DNA from: Caldisericia bacterium
GTDB taxonomy: Bacteria > Caldisericota > Caldisericia > JAAYUI01
NCBI GenBank assembly: GCA_017992555.1
Contig: JAGOOK010000002.1
Span: 21,180-85,179 of the forward strand
Direction of reading: 5' to 3'
Length of the DNA stretch: 64,000 nt
Below the pieces are notes generated by a model. The model was not told the origin of the DNA. It saw nothing but the letters and a program-made list of their open reading frames with translations, and searched no databases. The position numbers were made by a program, and so were the translations under genes. Shown in pieces: positions 5,145-29,560 of the stretch. Position 1 is the first letter of the stretch, and each line of letters starts with the position of its first letter.

Positions 5145-6392
5145 ATGAAAAGCAATATTTTTACAAAAGCCATCTTGCTGGTTCTGCTCTGTTCAACAAT
5201 CGCAGGTTGCGGTTTATATGACCTGCCAGTAAAACGATTGAGCAGAAACAGAATAAAAGGCGACCTAATTGGATACTTTCTTAATTATGATAGAGATAAA
5301 CATGATCTGGTAAATTTTATAAAACCAATCACGCTCGAAAGGTCTACCGTTTATGCTTATGATGATCCTGGGCTGAACAGCGTGCGGGAGATTCTTACCG
5401 TTGGAGGCAAGGTTGTTTCACGGCTGGTATCTCCAAAGACAGATCTTGACTTGTACTTCTTGCATGATATTGGCAATTCAAGATATTTAGCTAGATATAG
5501 CATTTCTGGTGAAAAAATATTTGACGTGCCAGTTCCAAAAGAAAACACCACAATTATTGGAAACAACTATAAAAGATCATACTATGAAGACGACCTTGTT
5601 TTCTGCCAGACAGATGACAGAAAAGCAGTTCATGTATATCGAAATGGGAAACTTGCCAATAAAATAATCTTCAAAAGGCCAATGTATTTTCTTCCTGGAA
5701 TTTTCATGGCTTATGATGGTGAAAATCTCCACAGGTTCTCGCAGACGAAAGAGCTAAAGGAAATCCAGGTCATAAGTTTGGGTCAGGTTGGCGATCTGTC
5801 AAAAGCAATCCTTGATACACAGCCATATGCAAGCTTTGAGGAAATGCCAAAAGCCATTTCGATATATGATGGCAAATCAGTTTTCTATTTCGATTATGAT
5901 GATAACGACAATCTTTTCCTTGCCTTGAAAAGGGACATCAAAGTGCTTGGCAAGAGCGCAGATTACAGAGCTTTCCCAACAGATGATGGTATTTTCACAA
6001 TAGAACCAAGGGCTAGGGTTTCTAATCTCTTTCCAAAACCAAATCCTAAACGCATTGATAAGTGCTATTTCAATCTCCTGATTCCCGAATTAAAGGATTA
6101 TGTCCCTGTAACAACACTTGATATGGAACCATGTATATACCCTCACCCAAATCTATTTCAGAAAAAATCTGGCAGATACACAAATTTGTCAATCTTGTCT
6201 GATTACGGTGAGCAATATTTATTGCTTTACAATATTTGGCCCATAAAGGATGAAATAATTGCTGTTGCTGGTTACGACATTTATTTGTATCTATTCTGTA
6301 AAAATGGTGTGTATCTTGTAGAATATAGCAAGTACGGGTCTAATCGAGATAAGCTAGAAATTATTGATATGTTGCCCAGAAATATCCCGTGA
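5145..6392 (+). CDS. hypothetical lipoprotein
   Basis: A signal peptide with lipobox LCSTIAGC is present, and a GGAGG ribosome-binding site lies upstream. Confidence 0.6.
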   Translation: MKSNIFTKAILLVLLCSTIAGCGLYDLPVKRLSRNRIKGDLIGYFLNYDRDKHDLVNFIKPITLERSTVYAYDDPGLNSVREILTVGGKVVSRLVSPKTDLDLYFLHDIGNSRYLARYSISGEKIFDVPVPKENTTIIGNNYKRSYYEDDLVFCQTDDRKAVHVYRNGKLANKIIFKRPMYFLPGIFMAYDGENLHRFSQTKELKEIQVISLGQVGDLSKAILDTQPYASFEEMPKAISIYDGKSVFYFDYDDNDNLFLALKRDIKVLGKSADYRAFPTDDGIFTIEPRARVSNLFPKPNPKRIDKCYFNLLIPELKDYVPVTTLDMEPCIYPHPNLFQKKSGRYTNLSILSDYGEQYLLLYNIWPIKDEIIAVAGYDIYLYLFCKNGVYLVEYSKYGSNRDKLEIIDMLPRNIP

Positions 6393-24099: not shown

Positions 24100-24531
24100 A
24101 TGTGGAAGAAAATCCTTGTTCAAGGCGTTTTACTAGCGCTTATGATATTGGCGTTTTTTCGCCTATATCTCTTTGCTTTCAACAAAGATGTCATATACGC
24201 TTACACCAGCATGAAGGAGTTTGCTGGTTTTATCCTGATTGCCGTTGTACTCAATTATCCTGTTTGTTATTTGTACAAGCGAATTTTCAAGAAACAAATT
24301 GAAAAAGACCAGGCATCACTCTATTCTAAAAGCTGGTTTGTCAGATTGGTTTGCGGGTTTGTTGTCATATTACTTGATTTATTTGTAATATATTTGTTCA
24401 ATGGTTTTGAACAAACAACTTTTGTTGCAGTATTGGTTATTTTTGTCGTATCATATGGGCTATTTGCCATATACGCCGTAATCCTTGAGTTAATAACAAA
24501 TATCTTGATGGTGGTAGAGAAAAGTAGTTGA
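24100..24531 (+). CDS. small 3-TM membrane protein, tandem paralog 1 of 4
   Basis: It carries the MWKKILV start and the shared core YLYKRIFKKQIEK...LYSKSWFVRLVCGFV...LFNGFEQT. Confidence 0.6.
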   Translation: MWKKILVQGVLLALMILAFFRLYLFAFNKDVIYAYTSMKEFAGFILIAVVLNYPVCYLYKRIFKKQIEKDQASLYSKSWFVRLVCGFVVILLDLFVIYLFNGFEQTTFVAVLVIFVVSYGLFAIYAVILELITNILMVVEKSS

Positions 24532-24532
24532 T

Positions 24533-24593
24533 CTTTGTAAAACCTCACGGCCCAACACAAAAACATGATTGAACCGTGAGTCCGCAAATTGCC
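24533..24593. repeat. hairpin-containing repeat copy A (GATCTTTGTAAAACCTCACGG...CCGTGAGTCCGCAAATTGCC) fused to the stop codon of paralog 1
   Basis: A near-identical copy lies at 26065..26126, and the inverted-repeat arms are CTCACGG/CCGTGAG. Confidence 0.7.
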
Positions 24594-24658
24594 TTCCCTT
24601 CATTGTAGATCTTATGTTTGCTATTTTATAAAAAGAGGATTTTTTTATAATAAAAAAC

Positions 24659-25072
24659 ATGGGGAAGAAAAAAATCTTTCAATATGTTTTCTCGATATTT
24701 TTGATACTGGCACTTGTAATTGCTTATTTTCTTATCTTCAAACCGGCATCCCACATAAGCCTTAAGAACATCCTTTCTGACATTCTTTTTATAACGATTT
24801 ATCTTGCCATCTACTATTTGTATAAGCTAATCTTTAATGTAAAAATTGAACAGGGCCGTGTTCCGCTTTACTCCAGAAGATGGTTTATCAGGCTCGTTTG
24901 TGGATTTATTACCATTGCGTTTGCTTCGTTTCAGATATATCCATTGTTTAATGGTTTTGAGCAAACAAGTATCGACACAACCTTGATTGCTTTTGCCGCA
25001 TCATACGGATCGTTTATTTTCTTTGTTGGAGTTCTTGAGTTGATTTATTTGGAGATGAAAAGGAGTAATTAA
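24659..25072 (+). CDS. small 3-TM membrane protein, tandem paralog 2 of 4
   Basis: It carries the shared core LYSRRWFIRLVCGFITIAF...LFNGFEQTS. Confidence 0.6.
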   Translation: MGKKKIFQYVFSIFLILALVIAYFLIFKPASHISLKNILSDILFITIYLAIYYLYKLIFNVKIEQGRVPLYSRRWFIRLVCGFITIAFASFQIYPLFNGFEQTSIDTTLIAFAASYGSFIFFVGVLELIYLEMKRSN

Positions 25073-25095
25073 ATGTTTTTTTCAATCTCTACCCT

Positions 25096-25117
25096 CTATT
25101 GCAGGTATTGTAGAAAG
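25096..25117 (+). promoter_or_regulatory. conserved 22-mer CTATTGCAGGTATTGTAGAAAG, promoter-like, upstream of paralog 3
   Basis: An identical 20/22-mer lies at 25578..25599. It is followed by TATATAAT about 8 nt before the ATG. Confidence 0.45.
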
Positions 25118-25131
25118 TATATAATAAAAAC

Positions 25132-25554
25132 ATGTGGAAAAAAATTCTTGTTCTAAGCGCTTTTATTATAATTTCGATACTAATACTTTACTTCATTAGG
25201 TATTTCATTTTCGCACTTTGTCTCACGTTTCTCCAAATTTGCGTAAAAAATGTCTTTTTTATTGCTATTGCCATGCTGATTTATTTCCCAATTTACTGTT
25301 TATACAGAGTAGTTTTCAAGATAAAAGATGAACAGGGCCACGTGCCACTTTATTCCAGGAGCTGGTTTATAAAGCTTGTTTGTGGGTTTGTTACTATCGC
25401 GTTTGATTTATTTTTTATCCATCCGCTATTTAATGGTTTTAAGCACTTGTATATTAAAATTAGTTTAATTGTTTTTGTCACGATTTATATTTTGTTTATT
25501 ATATATGTTGGAGCTTTTGAGTTGGTTTGTTGGGTGATGAAAAAGAGCAATTAA
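25132..25554 (+). CDS. small 3-TM membrane protein, tandem paralog 3 of 4
   Basis: It carries the MWKKILV start and LYSRSWFIKLVCGFVTIAF...LFNGFKH. Confidence 0.6.
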   Translation: MWKKILVLSAFIIISILILYFIRYFIFALCLTFLQICVKNVFFIAIAMLIYFPIYCLYRVVFKIKDEQGHVPLYSRSWFIKLVCGFVTIAFDLFFIHPLFNGFKHLYIKISLIVFVTIYILFIIYVGAFELVCWVMKKSN

Positions 25555-25577
25555 GCATTTTTTTGAATTCCCACCTT

Positions 25578-25599
25578 TTATTGCAGGTATTGTAGAAAG
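25578..25599 (+). promoter_or_regulatory. second copy of the conserved TTATTGCAGGTATTGTAGAAAG element, upstream of paralog 4
   Basis: It is identical to the core at 25096..25117, and a TATAAT box lies at 25611..25616 just before the ATG at 25623. Confidence 0.45.
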
Positions 25600-25622
25600 A
25601 GAATATTTTGTATAATAGCAAT

Positions 25623-26066
25623 ATGTGGAAAAAAATCCTTGTTCTAAGCATTTTATTGGCGATTGTTCTTATGGCATTTTTGAATTTATGTGGCCGTGCT
25701 TTATTTAATGATGACGTATATGCTTGTATTAGAACAAATGAATTTCCTGTTTTTATACTGTTTGCCGTTTTATCCGGTTGTCCCACTATCTATCTATACA
25801 AGCGAATTTTCAAAAAAAAGATTGAAAAAAATCCAACATCGTTTTATTCCAAAAGTTGGTTTATAAAGCTTGTTTGCGGGCTTGTTGTTATATCGACTGA
25901 TATAATTTTGATCTATCTCTTACGCAGTCATCGACATCCCATTTTTACAGAGATATCATGGGTTATCTTTATATTATCGTATGGGTTATTTGCCACATAC
26001 ACCATAATGACTGAGCTGATAAATAATATTTTGGTGACGCTAGAGGCCATAGAGAAAAATGGCTGA
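25623..26066 (+). CDS. small 3-TM membrane protein, tandem paralog 4 of 4
   Basis: It carries the MWKKILV start and FYSKSWFIKLVCGLVVIS. The track ORF starts upstream at 25608. Confidence 0.6.
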   Translation: MWKKILVLSILLAIVLMAFLNLCGRALFNDDVYACIRTNEFPVFILFAVLSGCPTIYLYKRIFKKKIEKNPTSFYSKSWFIKLVCGLVVISTDIILIYLLRSHRHPIFTEISWVIFILSYGLFATYTIMTELINNILVTLEAIEKNG

Positions 26067-26160: not shown

Positions 26161-26451
26161 TCACGGCTGTCCTTCGAGCCCCTCGCCTTCCTCTGTTTCC
26201 CCCTCCTCGTTGCGGATCCTGTATCTGTACTGATTGCCTTCGCCTTCCTCGTTCTCTTCACCTTCTTCACCAGGCGGCATCTGGAATTCCTGGCCATTCT
26301 GGAAACCTCCTGGTGGCCTTCCTCTTCCTTCGCCACGTTCTCCAGAACTCCAGAAACCAACAACTTGTGCCAGCTGGATCAATCCAATGAAAAGAACAAC
26401 AAAAAGAATTCCTGCGATATAAGGCTTTATTTTCATTTTTTCACCATCCAA
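26161..26451 (-). CDS. small membrane-anchored protein with Gly/Glu-rich acidic tail
   Basis: An N-terminal TM helix is followed by low-complexity EGEENEEGEGN...EEGETEEGEG. It overlaps the 5' end of the NapH-like gene, suggesting an operon. Confidence 0.4.
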   Translation of the reverse strand: MDGEKMKIKPYIAGILFVVLFIGLIQLAQVVGFWSSGERGEGRGRPPGGFQNGQEFQMPPGEEGEENEEGEGNQYRYRIRNEEGETEEGEGLEGQP

Positions 26452-27223
26452 TCTTGAAGCTGAGGGCTGTCGGGCATTCTTCCACGCACTTCATGCAGCT
26501 GATGCACTGGCCCCTGTCTATTTTTGTTTGTCTGCTGATTGGTATCTGCTTTGGGCAGACCTCTTCACAACTCTTGCATGACGTGCAGTCTTCATTTGAG
26601 TGCACAACACCCGTTGCCGAGAGCTTTGCAAACGGGAGAATGACTGCGCCAAGCGGGCAAAGGTATCTACAGAAGAACCTTTCGATAAACATCGAACCGA
26701 TTAGGATGAGCACCAGGACGACAAGGCCAACGGCAAACACCCTACCGAATGAGAAGAGGTTCAGGAACGGGTCGACTGTGCCAAACACCAGAAAGCCAAT
26801 CGAGAAGGTCATATAGAGGATGGCCGCAAGGACGACATACCTGAACCAGACCAGAACATTGTGCAACTTTTCTGGAACAATTATTCTTTTTTTCCAGAAA
26901 ACCCTTCTCAGCATGAAAAGCCATTCTGTGATCGAACCCACAGGGCAAACCCAGCCACAGAACGCCCCGCCAAACGCCAACACAGACAGCAAGAGTGCTA
27001 TCAGCATGACAAAGTTTGACAGGCCTGTTTCATGGACAAACTTTAGACCCCCAGAAGCAAGAAATGTTGGCAATGTCTCTACCCCACCGAAGGGGCAGAT
27101 TCCATGTAGCTCGATTCCCCTGACCCCAGGAAAAATGAATCGCCCCAGAGTGTAATACAGAATCAGAAGTACAAAGCCAATTTGGGAGAGATGACGGATG
27201 AGCGCATACTTTTTTTGTTTCAT
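26441..27223 (-). CDS. NapH/MauN-like polyferredoxin membrane protein (4Fe-4S binding)
   Basis: It has four or more TM helices, two CxxxCP motifs (CGWVCPVG, CRYLCPLG) and two ferredoxin motifs (CTSCKSCEEVCP, CISCMKCVEECP). Confidence 0.7.
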   Translation of the reverse strand: MKQKKYALIRHLSQIGFVLLILYYTLGRFIFPGVRGIELHGICPFGGVETLPTFLASGGLKFVHETGLSNFVMLIALLLSVLAFGGAFCGWVCPVGSITEWLFMLRRVFWKKRIIVPEKLHNVLVWFRYVVLAAILYMTFSIGFLVFGTVDPFLNLFSFGRVFAVGLVVLVLILIGSMFIERFFCRYLCPLGAVILPFAKLSATGVVHSNEDCTSCKSCEEVCPKQIPISRQTKIDRGQCISCMKCVEECPTALSFKIGW

Positions 27224-27497
27224 GCTACAAAAATTCCTCCTGACTTTTTATTAATAAAATCGCCATGATTTCTAATACTACGATTTATAGTAAAAAGTCA
27301 GGGTGGTCGAGTTAACCTTGGTTGTAACAAAATTTCAATCAATTTATTGGGTGGTGTCCAATCTTTGAAGTCGGAACATTAATAAGGTTAAAGAAATCCA
27401 GAATAATAATTATCATAATATTTAATTTAATTTAATGATCAATTCTTGATGCCAAATAACGTCATGGTACTCGTTTAGACAGAAAGGAGGTGGAGAG

Positions 27498-27686
27498 ATG
27501 CCTTATCAGCACAATATAAATTCAATAAAGGTATCAGTTGAAAGTGGCTTTGTCAATACGGAAATCATGGAACCCATTTCTGGCTTGTCAGTTGTCTGGA
27601 TAGACCAACAAAACTACAATCCTGCTACCATGGAAGTCTGTGCGTGTCCAAATTACAGGTGCTGGACCAATAATGCAATGGTCTGA
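27498..27686 (+). CDS. candidate RiPP precursor peptide (62 aa, Cys-containing C-terminal core ...TMEVCACPNYRCWTNNAMV)
   Basis: A strong ribosome-binding site AAGGAGGTG lies 6 nt before the ATG. It is small, has a leader-like N-terminus, and sits immediately upstream of the rSAM/SPASM enzyme. Confidence 0.55.
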   Translation: MPYQHNINSIKVSVESGFVNTEIMEPISGLSVVWIDQQNYNPATMEVCACPNYRCWTNNAMV

Positions 27687-27693
27687 TGGGATT

Positions 27694-27740
27694 AATACAA
27701 AAAGAGGGGGAGGTATTTATCCCCCCTCTTTTTGTATTGA
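27694..27740 (+). terminator. intrinsic terminator/attenuator hairpin between precursor and rSAM gene
   Basis: A 17-bp stem AATACAAAAAGAGGGGG/CCCCCTCTTTTTGTATT has a GC core and a trailing TTTTTGTATT. It is followed by the GAAGGAGG ribosome-binding site of the next gene. Confidence 0.7.
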
Positions 27741-27749
27741 AGGAGGATC

Positions 27750-29084
27750 ATGGGCTTTAGGTTTTCAAAATTTATTATTGCCAAAGAATTGGATGAAAAT
27801 AAATATGTTTTGATGTCTACAATATCCGGTTCCATAGTCGTAATTGATAAAAAGCTGATCGGTCTTATAAACAGTGGCAATTTACCGGAAGAAGAGAAAA
27901 TATACAAGGAATTGTCAAATGCGTTCCTGTTAGTTGACGAAAATTTTGATGAAAAATCTTTTCTGCTTAAAAAATTTTCCAGAGAAACATGGAAAAATGA
28001 TACCCTTGATGTAACGATAGCTCCATCTTTTGCGTGTAATTTTGCTTGTCCGTACTGTTATGAGGCTAGAGATGATCGCGTCATGGATGAAGGAACATTA
28101 AAAAATCTGGTCAAGTTCATTCAAAATCATTTAAAAGAGTTTGATATTGGTTATTTTGTCATGGCTTGCTATGGCGGGGAACCTCTTTTATTTTCTGACC
28201 ATTTCCAATATATCTATGAGGAAATTTCAAAAACGAATCCTTCGGTAAAGATATCTCCGAGAATGACCACCAATGGGTCGTTGCTGGGGAAAAAGCTTGG
28301 TGGATTCATGGAAGCTGTGCCATTGGAAAGGGTACAGGTGACAATACACGGGGACAAAAAGAACCATGATTCAAAAAGGTTCTACATAGATGGAAAACCA
28401 TCCTATGAAGATGTTGTGAATGGAATAGGGGAGGCAATCAATAGAAAGATCCCAAATATTGAGATCAGGGTGAATATTGATCTGGAGAATGTCGCATCAT
28501 TGGAAAACCTCTTGACGGACTTGGGTAGAAGGGGGTTTTCAAACCATGAAAATTTGCGTGTTTACGCTTATCCTGTTGTCCACATGACTCCGGAATCCCT
28601 CGGATACGAAAACAAGTGCCTGTCTATTGACAGTTACTTTGAAAAGATAACTGGAATCATTGAAATAATCAATTCTTATGGTTTTTGTGGGGGAGCTAAA
28701 CATATAAAAAAATACATAAAAAATCTTGTGTTGTCAAATCTTTGTGGTGTTGGCACAAAGGGTTTTTATACAGTATCACCCGATGGCGCAATCGGGACTT
28801 GCTGGGAATTTATTGGGAGAGAAGGTTTTGATATAGGAAATGTGAATTTCAGCGTGCCCATTGACTGCATGAAAGAAAAGGTGTGGATTGATGCAAGGAT
28901 CTCAAAGGTCAAGCGTTGCTTGGATCTTGAATGTCCTCTTGTTCCAAGTTGTGCTGGTGGATGTGTGGCACAGAGTTTTTCTGAAAGAGGAAGTTTAGGC
29001 GAACCTGCTTGTTTTAAAAAACCGGAACAGATCGCAGAATATCTTAGATTCTATGTGGATATGAGCATGAAATATCCAATCTGA
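27750..29084 (+). CDS. radical SAM enzyme with N-terminal RRE-like extension and C-terminal SPASM/twitch Cys-rich domain (peptide-modifying maturase)
   Basis: The CxxxCxxC motif (CNFACPYC) is at about residue 95 rather than the N-terminus, and the ~90-aa N-terminal region is PqqD/RRE-like. C-terminal Cys clusters are present (CGVGTKG...GTCWEF, CLDLECPLVPSCAGGCVAQ). Confidence 0.8.
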   Translation: MGFRFSKFIIAKELDENKYVLMSTISGSIVVIDKKLIGLINSGNLPEEEKIYKELSNAFLLVDENFDEKSFLLKKFSRETWKNDTLDVTIAPSFACNFACPYCYEARDDRVMDEGTLKNLVKFIQNHLKEFDIGYFVMACYGGEPLLFSDHFQYIYEEISKTNPSVKISPRMTTNGSLLGKKLGGFMEAVPLERVQVTIHGDKKNHDSKRFYIDGKPSYEDVVNGIGEAINRKIPNIEIRVNIDLENVASLENLLTDLGRRGFSNHENLRVYAYPVVHMTPESLGYENKCLSIDSYFEKITGIIEIINSYGFCGGAKHIKKYIKNLVLSNLCGVGTKGFYTVSPDGAIGTCWEFIGREGFDIGNVNFSVPIDCMKEKVWIDARISKVKRCLDLECPLVPSCAGGCVAQSFSERGSLGEPACFKKPEQIAEYLRFYVDMSMKYPI

Positions 29085-29101
29085 TTTTTATTTAATGGTT
29101 T

Positions 29102-29560
29102 TTACCCCACCTCCTCCACCTTGCCATCCTTGTGGAGCATAAGTTTGATGCCTTTGTTGATGAAGACCTCCTTGATCAGCTCGCTGTGCGGGTAGTCGTC
29201 ATGGTAATGGAGCTCTTCAAGGTTTGGAAAAGTGTTTGCAATGACTTTTGCACAGTGAAAGCACGGCAGTGTTGTGCAAAAAATCTGGGTAATGTCTTTT
29301 CTTGGCCCCTCATATCTCGAGATTGCATTGATTTCGGCGTGAATGACCGGGCATTGCCAGAGGTCTGATCCGGAAGCCAGGAGCTCCCTCTGACATGTGT
29401 CGCAGTGGGTCATTCCTGCCACAACACCGTTGTAGCCAGTGGCCTTTATGTTGCCGTCTGAATCCACCAGCATACAGCCGACCTGGCGCCTGAGACATGT
29501 TGACCTTTTGGCAACGATGTCCGTTATCATCATAAAATATGTTGGTTTGTCTGGTCTCAT
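29102..29560 (-). CDS. dCMP deaminase (ComEB-like cytidine/deoxycytidylate deaminase family)
   Basis: The zinc-binding motifs HAEINAI and PCFHCAK are present. The likely start is MRPDKPTYFMMI at 29560, whereas the track ORF begins at 29608. Confidence 0.8.
   Translation of the reverse strand: MRPDKPTYFMMITDIVAKRSTCLRRQVGCMLVDSDGNIKATGYNGVVAGMTHCDTCQRELLASGSDLWQCPVIHAEINAISRYEGPRKDITQIFCTTLPCFHCAKVIANTFPNLEELHYHDDYPHSELIKEVFINKGIKLMLHKDGKVEEVG

What the first reader, a model, noticed from the sequence alone, without database searches (positions are those of the whole stretch)
27484..29084. Compact RiPP-like module: Cys-containing precursor peptide, attenuator hairpin, then rSAM/SPASM maturase with RRE-like N-terminus
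**What the sequence shows.** A 62-codon ORF (27498..27686) is preceded by a near-perfect Shine-Dalgarno (AAGGAGGTG, 6-nt spacer) and ends in a Cys/aromatic-rich core (TMEVCACPNYRCWTNNAMV). It is followed by a 17-bp GC-cored hairpin with a trailing T-tract (27694..27740) and then GAAGGAGG plus ATG for the next gene. That gene encodes a 444-aa radical-SAM protein whose CxxxCxxC box (CNFACPYC) sits about 95 aa from the N-terminus, behind a PqqD/RRE-like beta-sheet-plus-helix region, and which ends with extra Cys clusters typical of SPASM/twitch auxiliary Fe-S domains.

**What established knowledge adds.** In sactipeptide and ranthipeptide clusters the rSAM maturase carries an N-terminal RRE that binds the leader peptide, and a partial terminator after the structural gene sets the precursor-to-enzyme stoichiometry.

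**Inference.** This two-gene unit likely makes a thioether or other Cys-crosslinked peptide. The core does not match known families (SCIFF has six Cys, and subtilosin, thuricin and sporulation-killing-factor (SKF) cores look different). No transporter or protease is adjacent, which is unusual.
Basis: partly seen in the sequence, partly recalled or inferred. Interest (0 to 1): 0.85.

Follow-up and report, generated by a model that had tools for sequence, protein, structure and literature searches.

The report
Orphan radical-SAM peptide cassette, Caldisericota
This is a real two-gene unit, a small cysteine-containing peptide plus the radical-SAM enzyme that most likely cross-links it, and it belongs to a well-known kind of system but to a peptide family not yet catalogued and so far seen almost only in Caldisericota bacteria.

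Summary
A 62-codon ORF (27498-27686), a strong terminator-like hairpin (27692-27740) and a 444-aa radical-SAM/SPASM gene (27750-29084) are all present.

The small ORF is a real gene:
- dN/dS is 0.02-0.07 against close relatives.
- A homologous 62-70-aa gene sits directly upstream of every enzyme relative at 35% identity or more whose upstream DNA was recovered. Flanking genes differ among lineages.

The enzyme has three supported parts:
- a radical-SAM CxxxCxxC box;
- a seven-Cys SPASM motif;
- an N-terminal domain whose predicted fold best matches known RiPP recognition elements (TbiB1, TfuB1, PbtF, PqqD).

Its closest solved structure is CteB. It reaches no curated equivalog cut-off; CefB is best, at 188 of 600 bits. 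The peptide matches no Pfam or NCBIfam model. A profile search of 1.84 billion proteins found about ten true members. Every locus whose organism I could determine is Caldisericota.

Two core types exist. Type A (here) is CxCPNYRCWxN. Type B is xxT[YF]C pentads. The enzymes group by core type.

The most likely mechanism is Cys thioether cross-linking of the core, guided by the leader binding the RRE, with the hairpin lowering enzyme transcription. The chemistry is inferred, not shown.

Verdict: a new member of a known kind, of moderate interest.

The parts
27371..27497 (+). Conserved 5' region (putative promoter or regulatory region) ending in the Shine-Dalgarno AAGGAGGTG (27484-27492). It contains a small palindrome, ATCAATTCTTGAT, at 27438-27450.
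   Evidence: The block is conserved in L001, L013 and L012. In L012 the sequence further upstream is unrelated. A weak promoter-like match lies at 27379-27407, but such matches are not enriched over shuffles. The promoter role is inferred.
27498..27686 (+). Precursor peptide gene (62 aa). The leader is roughly residues 1-46, with conserved M24, V32, W34, D36 and M45. The core is roughly residues 47-62.
   Evidence: Translation is. dN/dS is 0.02-0.07. Homologues lie upstream of every clade enzyme. The family alignments are A1 and A3. There is no Pfam or NCBIfam match.
27639..27671 (+). Core motif C48-A-C50-P-N-Y-R-C55-W-T-N58 (type A). It is the presumed site of modification.
   Evidence: CxCPNYRCWxN is unchanged in the window, L005, L006 and L014, although their enzymes are only about 36-41% identical to the window enzyme. 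The divergent member P0139 keeps CxxYRCWxN.
27692..27740 (+). Intrinsic-terminator-like hairpin between the precursor and enzyme genes. It is a presumed partial terminator or mRNA-stabilising 3' structure.
   Evidence: Predicted energy -32 kcal/mol, z -5.2. It is found by the terminator scan. Hairpins of unrelated sequence sit at the same position in L001, L012, L006, L014, L091 and L092, with z from -2.9 to -4.9. L005 has only a weak one, and type-B loci have none.
27750..29084 (+). Radical-SAM/SPASM peptide maturase (444 aa). Its Shine-Dalgarno GAAGGAGG lies at 27739-27746.
   Evidence: Family scans are. The AF2 model has pLDDT 94. The Foldseek top hit is CteB 5wgg, E 3e-17, over the full length. 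A PDB sequence search also gives CteB, E 1.6e-24.
27750..28004 (+). N-terminal RiPP recognition element (RRE) of the enzyme, about residues 1-85. Secondary structure: strands 9-13, 18-23 and 29-33, helices 34-42, 49-57 and 68-80.
28035..28058 (+). Radical-SAM cluster motif C96-N-F-A-C100-P-Y-C103.
   Evidence: The motif is invariant in 74 homologues.
28743..29012 (+). SPASM domain: C332-x13-G-x4-C351 ... C390-x4-C395-x5-C401-x3-C405 ... C421.
   Evidence: TIGR04085 scores 42.5 bits against a cut-off of 27. All seven Cys are invariant in 74 homologues. C290 is also invariant within the clade.

Best explanation
This is a self-contained two-gene RiPP cassette from a Caldisericales bacterium.

**Proposed steps**
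1. One promoter upstream of 27498 drives both genes.
2. Most transcripts end at, or are stabilised by, the hairpin at 27692-27740. The precursor mRNA therefore far exceeds the enzyme mRNA.
3. Read-through transcripts express the maturase.
4. The enzyme's N-terminal RRE binds the roughly 46-residue leader. The likely contact is the conserved V32-V-W-I-D36 stretch, docking as a beta-strand beside RRE strand beta3.
5. This places the C-terminal core C48xC50PNYRC55WxN58 in the active site.
6. The radical-SAM cluster cleaves SAM to give a 5'-deoxyadenosyl radical, which abstracts a hydrogen atom from a core residue.
7. A Cys thiolate, held near the SPASM auxiliary cluster, attacks the carbon radical to form one or two intramolecular thioether rings (sactionine or ranthionine type).

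**Likely role.** The core is almost invariant across enzymes only about 38-41% identical, and no immunity, transporter or protease gene travels with it. The product is therefore more likely a physiological peptide, such as a signal, as proposed for SCIFF, than an arms-race antibiotic.

**Shown versus inferred.** Shown here: gene reality, precursor-enzyme linkage, the rSAM, SPASM and RRE domains, and recurrence of the hairpin. Inferred: attenuation, the leader-RRE binding mode, thioether chemistry and biological role.
For: **The small ORF is a real gene.** It is under strong purifying selection.

**The peptide and enzyme travel together.**
- A homologous 62-70-aa gene lies directly upstream of each clade enzyme at L001-L014 and L091, and upstream of an rSAM N-terminal fragment at L092. 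Flanking genes differ among lineages.
- A profile of the family finds it in none of about 76 loci that encode more distant rSAM homologues.
- The enzymes form one clade and group by core type.

**Enzyme domains are as predicted.**
- Radical_SAM and SPASM models reach their cut-offs. The best full-length similarities are all to maturases of Cys-rich peptides: CefB 188 bits, TIGR04463 177, geopeptide 148, Clo7bot 144, PapB 123.
- The closest solved structure is the thioether-forming CteB.
- The seven SPASM Cys are invariant.

**Cys are the most conserved core residues.** C55 is invariant across the whole family. C50 is kept in all type-A members. Type B keeps three Cys at five-residue spacing.

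**The hairpin is a recurring feature.** Hairpins recur at the same position with unrelated sequences.
Against: - No experiment or mass data exist. Chemistry of rSAM-SPASM enzymes cannot be read from full-length similarity at this distance (PMC10288494).
- The second-best full-length structural neighbour, TigE, is a cyclopropylglycine synthase, not a thioether synthase (PMC10878394).
- All curated equivalog scores are far below their cut-offs.
- The invariant W56-x-N58 and Y53 fit three-residue cyclophane motifs as well as they fit thioether acceptors.
- Type-B loci and L005 lack a significant hairpin, so attenuation is not universal in the family.
- A separate weak promoter for the enzyme gene cannot be excluded.
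Confidence: 0.55

Rival explanations
1. The cassette and leader/RRE logic are the same, but the enzyme forms a non-thioether cross-link. One candidate is a C-C cyclophane from an aromatic ring to a side-chain carbon two residues on (W56-T-N58 or Y53-R-C55), as in triceptides. Another is an Arg/Trp or Arg/Tyr link as in ryptides or WprB products. In this reading the Cys serve as cluster ligands or form a disulfide.
For: - Y53, R54, W56 and N58 are as invariant as the Cys in type-A cores, including the divergent P0139.
- Type-B cores keep an aromatic residue next to each Cys.
- Close structural neighbours include enzymes that form C-C bonds: TigE and SuiB (PMC10878394).
- WprB links Trp to Arg (PMC11851443).
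- Full-length similarity is a poor guide to rSAM chemistry (PMC10288494).
Against: - Cyclophane-forming families score much lower than the Cys-rich-peptide maturases: YhhB 60, FxsB 51 and AmcB about 49 bits against 123-188 bits.
- Regular Cys spacing is the one feature shared by both core types.
- The W-x-N motif is absent from type B.
Confidence: 0.2
2. The hairpin is simply the full terminator of a monocistronic peptide gene, shared as a bidirectional element or acting as an mRNA stabiliser. The rSAM gene would then have its own promoter, so no attenuation sets the stoichiometry.
For: - The stem is long (19+3 bp, -32 kcal/mol) and carries an upstream A-tract and a downstream T-tract, like a strong or bidirectional terminator.
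- Type-B loci manage without any hairpin.
Against: - Only 9 nt separate the hairpin from the ATG of the enzyme gene, and they hold its Shine-Dalgarno.
- No promoter-like match lies between the hairpin and the enzyme gene. The only + strand match inside the peptide ORF (27592-27620) lies upstream of the hairpin.
- The two genes stay adjacent and co-oriented in every locus.
Confidence: 0.2
3. This is not a RiPP system. The small ORF would be an unrelated small protein, or a spurious ORF. The rSAM enzyme would be a sulfatase maturase or a cofactor-biosynthesis enzyme.
For: - Neither Pfam nor NCBIfam recognises the peptide.
- Leader-like modules also occur at the N-terminus of larger bactofilin-like proteins that are not next to rSAM genes.
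Against: - dN/dS is 0.02-0.07.
- Peptide and enzyme stay adjacent in every locus recovered, although flanking genes differ among lineages.
- The enzyme has an RRE fold.
- anSME scores 62 of 349 bits, MoaA 48 of 325 and mycofactocin MftC 51 of 265.
Confidence: 0.03

Closest known systems
SCIFF / ranthipeptide cassettes (scfA-scfB; CteA-CteB, Tte1186a; PapA-PapB freyrasin)
   Same: - A small Cys-containing precursor lies next to one rSAM/SPASM maturase with an N-terminal RRE.
- No dedicated transporter, protease or immunity gene is present.
- The core is conserved across a taxon, which argues against an antibiotic role (PMC8326336).
- CteB is the closest solved structure by sequence and by fold.
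   Different: - The SCIFF maturase model scores 63 bits against a cut-off of 425. PapB scores 123 against 340.
- The peptide has 3 Cys, not 6.
- It has no Cx3D repeats and no SCIFF signature.
- The leader family is unrelated.
- The taxon is Caldisericota, not Clostridia.
Cys-every-fifth system CefA/CefB (NF038107) and the TIGR04463, Clo7bot and geopeptide maturase families
   Same: - These are the best full-length enzyme similarities (188, 177, 144 and 148 bits).
- Cys spacing of five residues (C50-x4-C55; type B Cx4Cx4C) resembles the pattern that gives CefA its name.
- A distant homologue locus, L062, carries CTGFSCGAFGCQNYNC.
   Different: - All scores are under a third to two-fifths of the curated cut-offs.
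- The precursors match no NCBIfam model at E<=10, apart from two chance beta-lactamase hits.
- The chemistry of these families is, to my knowledge, uncharacterised, so the resemblance gives no mechanism.
NxxcA/NxxcB (Cys-Asn C-beta thioether, Streptococcus)
   Same: The window core contains N52-Y-R-C55, an NxxC motif. NxxcB links Cys23 to Asn20 (PMC8326336).
   Different: - N52 is Ser in the divergent member P0139 and is absent from type-B cores.
- No NxxcB model appears among the 25 best of 62 NCBIfam matches shown.
Triceptide / three-residue cyclophane maturases (YhhB, FxsB, AmcB families)
   Same: The core has the aromatic-x-x motifs W56-T-N58 and Y53-R-C55. The enzyme is an rSAM/SPASM protein with an RRE.
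   Different: Scores to these families are weak, 50-60 bits against cut-offs of 370-445. Cys conservation is not a feature of triceptide cores.

Membership tests
Radical SAM superfamily | CxxxCxxC motif within a partial TIM-barrel domain (Pfam PF04055) | tested here: met
   C96-x3-C100-x2-C103. PF04055 scores 49.7 bits against a cut-off of 29.5. The motif is invariant in 74 homologues.
SPASM subfamily | C-terminal seven-Cys motif Cx9-15Gx4C ... CxxCx5Cx3C ... C that binds auxiliary Fe-S clusters (TIGR04085) | tested here: met
   TIGR04085 scores 42.5 bits against a cut-off of 27. The motif is C332-x13-G-x4-C351, C390-x4-C395-x5-C401-x3-C405, C421, and all are invariant. The first spacing is x4 rather than x2. 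Cluster binding itself was not tested.
RiPP recognition element (RRE / PqqD-like) | Winged helix-turn-helix fold: a three-stranded beta-sheet plus three helices | tested here: met
RiPP recognition element (RRE / PqqD-like) | Sequence match to Pfam PqqD (PF05402) | tested here: not met
   The window enzyme has no PqqD hit at E<=1. PqqD is also not among the 25 families that most of the 74 homologues match. RREs of rSAM enzymes are known to escape this model (PMC7470986 describes custom models).
RiPP recognition element (RRE / PqqD-like) | Binds the leader peptide | not testable with these tools
Testing needs AF-multimer or a binding assay.
RiPP biosynthetic cassette | Precursor gene co-occurs with the maturase across genomes, with a conserved leader and a distinct core | tested here: met
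   Every clade locus recovered with upstream DNA has the precursor directly upstream. This comprises about 11 distinct loci with flanking genes that differ among lineages, including 4 tandem copies in L007.
SCIFF (TIGR03973 peptide / TIGR03974 maturase) | Maturase reaches the TIGR03974 cut-off; peptide has six Cys in about 45 residues | tested here: not met
   TIGR03974 scores 63.4 bits against a cut-off of 425. The peptide has three Cys in 62 residues.
PapB-type ranthipeptide | Maturase reaches the NF047865 cut-off; core has repeated Cx3D/E motifs | tested here: not met
   NF047865 scores 123 bits against a cut-off of 340. The core has no Asp or Glu after E46.
Cys-every-fifth CefA/CefB | Maturase reaches the NF038107 cut-off; precursor matches the CefA model | tested here: not met
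   NF038107 scores 187.8 bits against a cut-off of 600. The precursors have no NCBIfam RiPP hit. The five-residue Cys spacing is shared.
Sactipeptide / ranthipeptide (class level) | Cys sulfur linked to the C-alpha (sacti) or C-beta/C-gamma (ranthi) of an acceptor residue | not testable with these tools
   This needs HR-MS/MS and NMR of the modified peptide.
Anaerobic sulfatase maturase | Reaches the TIGR03942 cut-off; no RRE; acts on a sulfatase | tested here: not met
   TIGR03942 scores 62.3 bits against a cut-off of 349. An RRE is present.
Intrinsic terminator / attenuator | GC-rich stem-loop followed by a U-tract, located between co-oriented genes | tested here: met
   It recurs in related loci.
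Intrinsic terminator / attenuator | Partial termination with measurable read-through | not testable with these tools
   This needs Term-seq, RNA-seq or RT-PCR.

The most novel reading that the evidence does not exclude
The near-invariant nine-residue core CxxYRCWxN may be the substrate for a cross-link not yet described for radical-SAM enzymes. One possibility is a Cys-S to Trp or Tyr ring linkage. Another is a combined thioether and cyclophane bicycle. The product would be a phylum-specific signalling or cofactor-like peptide of Caldisericota. The core is maintained across enzymes only 38-41% identical and is paired with a second core type (xxT[YF]C pentads) in the same genome.
Probability: 0.12. 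Interest if true: 0.75.

Novelty: new member of a known kind. Interest (0 to 1): 0.45.

Why it matters
It adds an uncatalogued precursor family and its dedicated maturase clade to the radical-SAM/SPASM RiPPs. The source is Caldisericota, a phylum with very few cultured members (my own knowledge); two paper searches that included Caldisericota terms returned no such paper.

The system is minimal, at two genes and about 1.7 kb. It comes in two natural core types with matched enzymes. That makes it a convenient pair for asking how rSAM/SPASM enzymes select their cross-link sites. The strongly conserved core hints at a physiological role rather than an antibiotic one.

It does not change how such systems are understood. 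Thousands of orphan rSAM RiPP clusters are already known (PMC10288494).

Tried and rejected
- **Known peptide family.** Pfam and NCBIfam scans of the window peptide and the eight other precursors of A1 gave nothing.
- **Pfam PqqD in the enzyme or its 74 homologues.** PqqD was not among the matches returned. The RRE had to be tested by fold instead.
- **Rfam scan of the whole window.** It gave no match, so the hairpin is not a known riboswitch or RNA family.
- **Literature searches.** Searches for 'Cys-every-fifth', CefB, TIGR04463, NF038107, OhkG, FlmE, geopeptide and Clo7bot gave only irrelevant hits. A search for Caldisericota with RiPP or radical SAM found no such paper. A search for a citable case of terminator read-through in bacteriocin operons gave nothing usable, so that precedent rests on my own knowledge (nisA-nisB, sboA-albA).
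- **Neighbouring genes as part of the module.** The divergent polyferredoxin gene (26441-27223) and the four tandem membrane-protein genes (24100-26066) were considered and rejected. They are absent from the contexts of L005, L006, L014, L007, L008, L010 and L091.
- **A second precursor or rSAM gene in the window.** None was found.
- **Leader-like modules in P0135 and P0136.** These proteins are not next to rSAM genes.
- **P0137 and P0140.** These hits from the profile search are repetitive proteins that match only a short VxWxD stretch. I treated them as false positives.
Full report

Yes. Reading 27300-29300 and translating gives these features:
- a 62-codon ORF at 27498-27686, MPYQHNINSIKVSVESGFVNTEIMEPISGLSVVWIDQQNYNPATMEVCACPNYRCWTNNAMV;
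- a hairpin at 27692-27740;
- GAAGGAGG at 27739-27746;
- a 444-codon ORF at 27750-29084 carrying C96NFAC100PYC103.

The hairpin folds at -32 kcal/mol. Shuffles average -16.8 +/- 2.9, giving z = -5.2, and 0 of 200 shuffles fold as well. The terminator scan recognises it. Its GC-rich core is followed by CUCUUUUUGUAUU.

**2. Is the small ORF a gene?**

Against the three closest relatives (L001, L012, L013), the ORF shows 9-11 synonymous and 1-3.5 non-synonymous differences. That gives dN/dS of 0.02-0.07. Against L005, synonymous sites are saturated (pS 0.90) while the peptide stays 82% identical. This is the pattern of a translated gene.

**3. Does it travel with the enzyme?**

A word-index search with the peptide alone found only a 95%-identical copy. 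The enzyme search was more informative. It showed a tight clade at 91, 79, 41, 35, 35 and 35% identity, then a drop to 31% or less.

Every clade member that could be placed on a contig has a homologous small gene directly upstream and on the same strand:

| Locus | Precursor coordinates |
|---|---|
| L005 | 5742-5930 |
| L006 | 5719-5910 |
| L007 | four tandem copies, one GTG-start copy uncalled by the source |
| L008 | 1021-1227 |
| L010 | 5683-5883 |
| L014 | 5752-5943 |

The flanking genes differ from lineage to lineage. Examples are an aminotransferase with 2-oxoacid:ferredoxin oxidoreductase, MraY with an HMA protein (shared by L006 and L014), a histidine kinase, an alpha/beta hydrolase, and GatD with SMC. 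The conserved unit is therefore the two genes alone.

An exhaustive profile search of 1.84 billion representative proteins gave 12 hits.
- Two short ones were new, divergent precursors. P0139 lies next to an rSAM 38% identical to the window enzyme. P0138 lies next to an rSAM N-terminal fragment.
- Two were larger bactofilin-like proteins with leader-like N-terminal modules that are not linked to any rSAM.
- Two were repetitive false positives.

The same profile found nothing in about 76 loci that encode more distant rSAM homologues. Only one precursor and one rSAM gene occur in the window.

**4. Organism and distribution**

Among one genome for each of 185,579 species, only three genomes carry a clade member. 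All three are Caldisericota:
- Caldisericales bacterium JAAYUI01, 91% identity;
- Caldisericota bacterium JAKPMO01, 89%;
- Caldisericia bacterium OY771555.1, 36%.

The next genome hit, at 28%, is an unclassified Firmicutes bacterium, followed by Collinsella. Neighbours of L006 and L008 are more than 90% identical to Caldisericia MAG proteins. The taxa of L010 and L091 are unknown. OY771555.1 carries two loci, one of each core type.

**5. The peptide family**

The leader is conserved: M-P-Y-x-H-[ND]-x-x-S-[IL]-K ... M24-E ... V32-[VC]-W34-[IVM]-D36-x-x-x-[FY]-[DN]-P-x-x-M45. Two core types exist.
- **Type A** is C-x-C-P-N-Y-R-C-W-x-N. It is found in the window, L005, L006 and L014. The divergent P0139 reduces the invariant set to C-x-x-Y-R-C-W-x-N.
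- **Type B** is two or three pentads x-x-[T]-[YF]-C, that is Cx4Cx4C. It is found in L007, L008 and L010.

C55 is the only core residue invariant across both types. A neighbour-joining tree places all clade enzymes together, with the type-B enzymes as a subclade. Enzyme and core therefore co-vary.

The type-A core is unchanged between enzymes only about 36-41% identical. That pattern is typical of peptides with a fixed physiological role, such as SCIFF, PQQ and mycofactocin, rather than of diversifying bacteriocins. This last point is an inference.

**6. The enzyme**

- *Family scans.* Pfam Radical_SAM and NCBIfam SPASM (TIGR04085, 42.5 against 27 bits) are met. The best full-length models are all maturases of Cys-rich peptides, but none comes near its cut-off: CefB 188/600, TIGR04463 177/525, geopeptide 148/400, Clo7bot 144/600, PapB 123/340, SCIFF 63/425, anSME 62/349. 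Other clade members behave the same way.
- *Conserved Cys.* In 74 homologues the invariant Cys are 96, 100 and 103 (rSAM) and 332, 351, 390, 395, 401, 405 and 421 (SPASM). Together with G346, they give C-x13-G-x4-C ... C-x4-C-x5-C-x3-C ... C. C290 is additionally invariant within the clade.
- *Full-length model.* AlphaFold2 with 74 sequences gives pLDDT 94. Foldseek against the PDB ranks CteB first (5wgg, E 3e-17, full length). Next come TigE, anSME, SuiB and ChlB. A sequence profile also finds CteB first, E 1.6e-24.

**7. The hairpin**

A significant hairpin occupies the same position in L001 (z -3.6), L012 (-4.7), L006 (-4.9), L014 (-2.9), L091 (-3.8) and L092 (-3.5). The stem sequences are unrelated. 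L005 has only a weak one (z 0.06). The type-B loci L007 and L008 have 20-32-nt spacers with no hairpin, and L010 has none either.

In the window, only 9 nt separate the hairpin from the ATG of the enzyme gene, and they hold its Shine-Dalgarno. No promoter-like match lies between them. The enzyme gene is therefore most simply expressed by read-through. Partial termination after the structural gene is well known in lantibiotic and sactipeptide operons (nisA-nisB, sboA-albA). That precedent is my own knowledge, as I found no citable text. No Rfam family matches anywhere in the window.

**8. Upstream region**

About 127 nt before the ATG (27371-27497) is conserved in L001, L013 and L012, even though L012's further-upstream sequence is unrelated. 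The control region appears to move with the cassette. I did not analyse it further.

**9. Mechanism, and what is inferred**

The best-supported reading has four steps:
1. The RRE binds the leader.
2. The core enters the active site.
3. The 5'-deoxyadenosyl radical abstracts a hydrogen atom from a core residue.
4. A Cys thiolate closes a thioether ring.

Support comes from three points. Cys conservation is the common denominator of both core types. The nearest characterised relatives, CteB and PapB, are thioether synthases. The nearest uncharacterised relatives all act on Cys-rich peptides.

Two cautions apply. PMC10288494 states that the chemistry of an uncharacterised rSAM protein cannot be predicted without very high identity to a known enzyme. 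TigE, the second-best full-length structural neighbour, makes cyclopropylglycine (PMC10878394).

The invariant Y53, R54, W56 and N58 would also suit cyclophane or Arg-aromatic cross-links (compare WprB, PMC11851443). N52-x-x-C55 resembles the NxxC motif of NxxcA, but N52 is not conserved in P0139.

I put thioether formation at about 0.55 and another cross-link type at about 0.2.

**10. Comparison and novelty**

The cassette works like a SCIFF/ranthipeptide unit: a two-gene module with an RRE-rSAM-SPASM maturase, a conserved core and no export or immunity genes. It fails the membership tests for SCIFF, PapB, CefB, TIGR04463, Clo7bot and the geopeptide family. Its precursor belongs to no catalogued family.

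It is therefore a new family inside a well-known class, not a new kind of system. Orphan rSAM RiPP clusters are numerous; PMC10288494 lists about 15,000 RiPP-associated rSAM proteins. A specialist would find it useful but not surprising. I score interest at 0.45.

Noticed in passing
window 24100-26066 (+): There are four tandem paralogous genes for predicted membrane proteins of about 140 aa (24100-24531, 24659-25072, 25132-25554, 25608-26066). They share the motif YS(R/K)SWFI(K/R)LVCGF...FNGF. The first three have no Pfam match and the fourth only a sub-threshold CitMHS hit. The array is absent from the otherwise syntenic close relative L001.
   Followed up: partly
window 26441-27223 (-) and 26161-26451 (-): A 260-aa membrane polyferredoxin (two Fer4_5 domains plus Fer4) is transcribed divergently from the precursor gene. 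It is followed by a 96-aa Gly/Glu-rich small protein. Both are conserved next to the cassette only in close relatives (L001-L003), not in L005, L006 or L014, so they are probably unrelated to the module.
   Followed up: partly
P0135 (L095 5001-5687) and P0136 (L094 2375-3577): These are larger proteins of 228 and 400 aa. Each begins with two copies of a module resembling the precursor leader, followed by bactofilin-like DGDxYG repeats. They are not adjacent to any rSAM gene. The leader may derive from, or share ancestry with, a small protein domain.
   Followed up: partly
L007 5349-5555 (+): A fourth precursor copy with a GTG start lies between the called precursor genes of the Caldisericia OY771555.1 type-B locus. 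The source annotation did not call it.
   Followed up: yes
window 27371-27497, palindrome 27438-27450: The 127 nt upstream of the precursor ATG are conserved even in L012, where the sequence further upstream is unrelated. The block contains the short palindrome ATCAATTCTTGAT, a possible operator. One arm is mutated in L012.
   Followed up: no
L008 2635-3822 (+): In one type-B locus, a 395-aa alpha/beta hydrolase (COesterase / Peptidase_S9-like) follows the rSAM gene on the same strand. It could be a leader peptidase, by analogy with the S9 protease WprP (bioRxiv 10.1101/2025.10.18.683210). It is not seen in other loci.
   Followed up: no
L062 5680-5835 (+): A distant homologue locus from Holophagae encodes a 51-aa peptide ending CTGFSCGAFGCQNYNCMVFEGFN. 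Its Cys fall at every fifth position, and its CQNYNC resembles the window's CPNYRC. The leader is unrelated and the rSAM is only 25% identical.
   Followed up: partly
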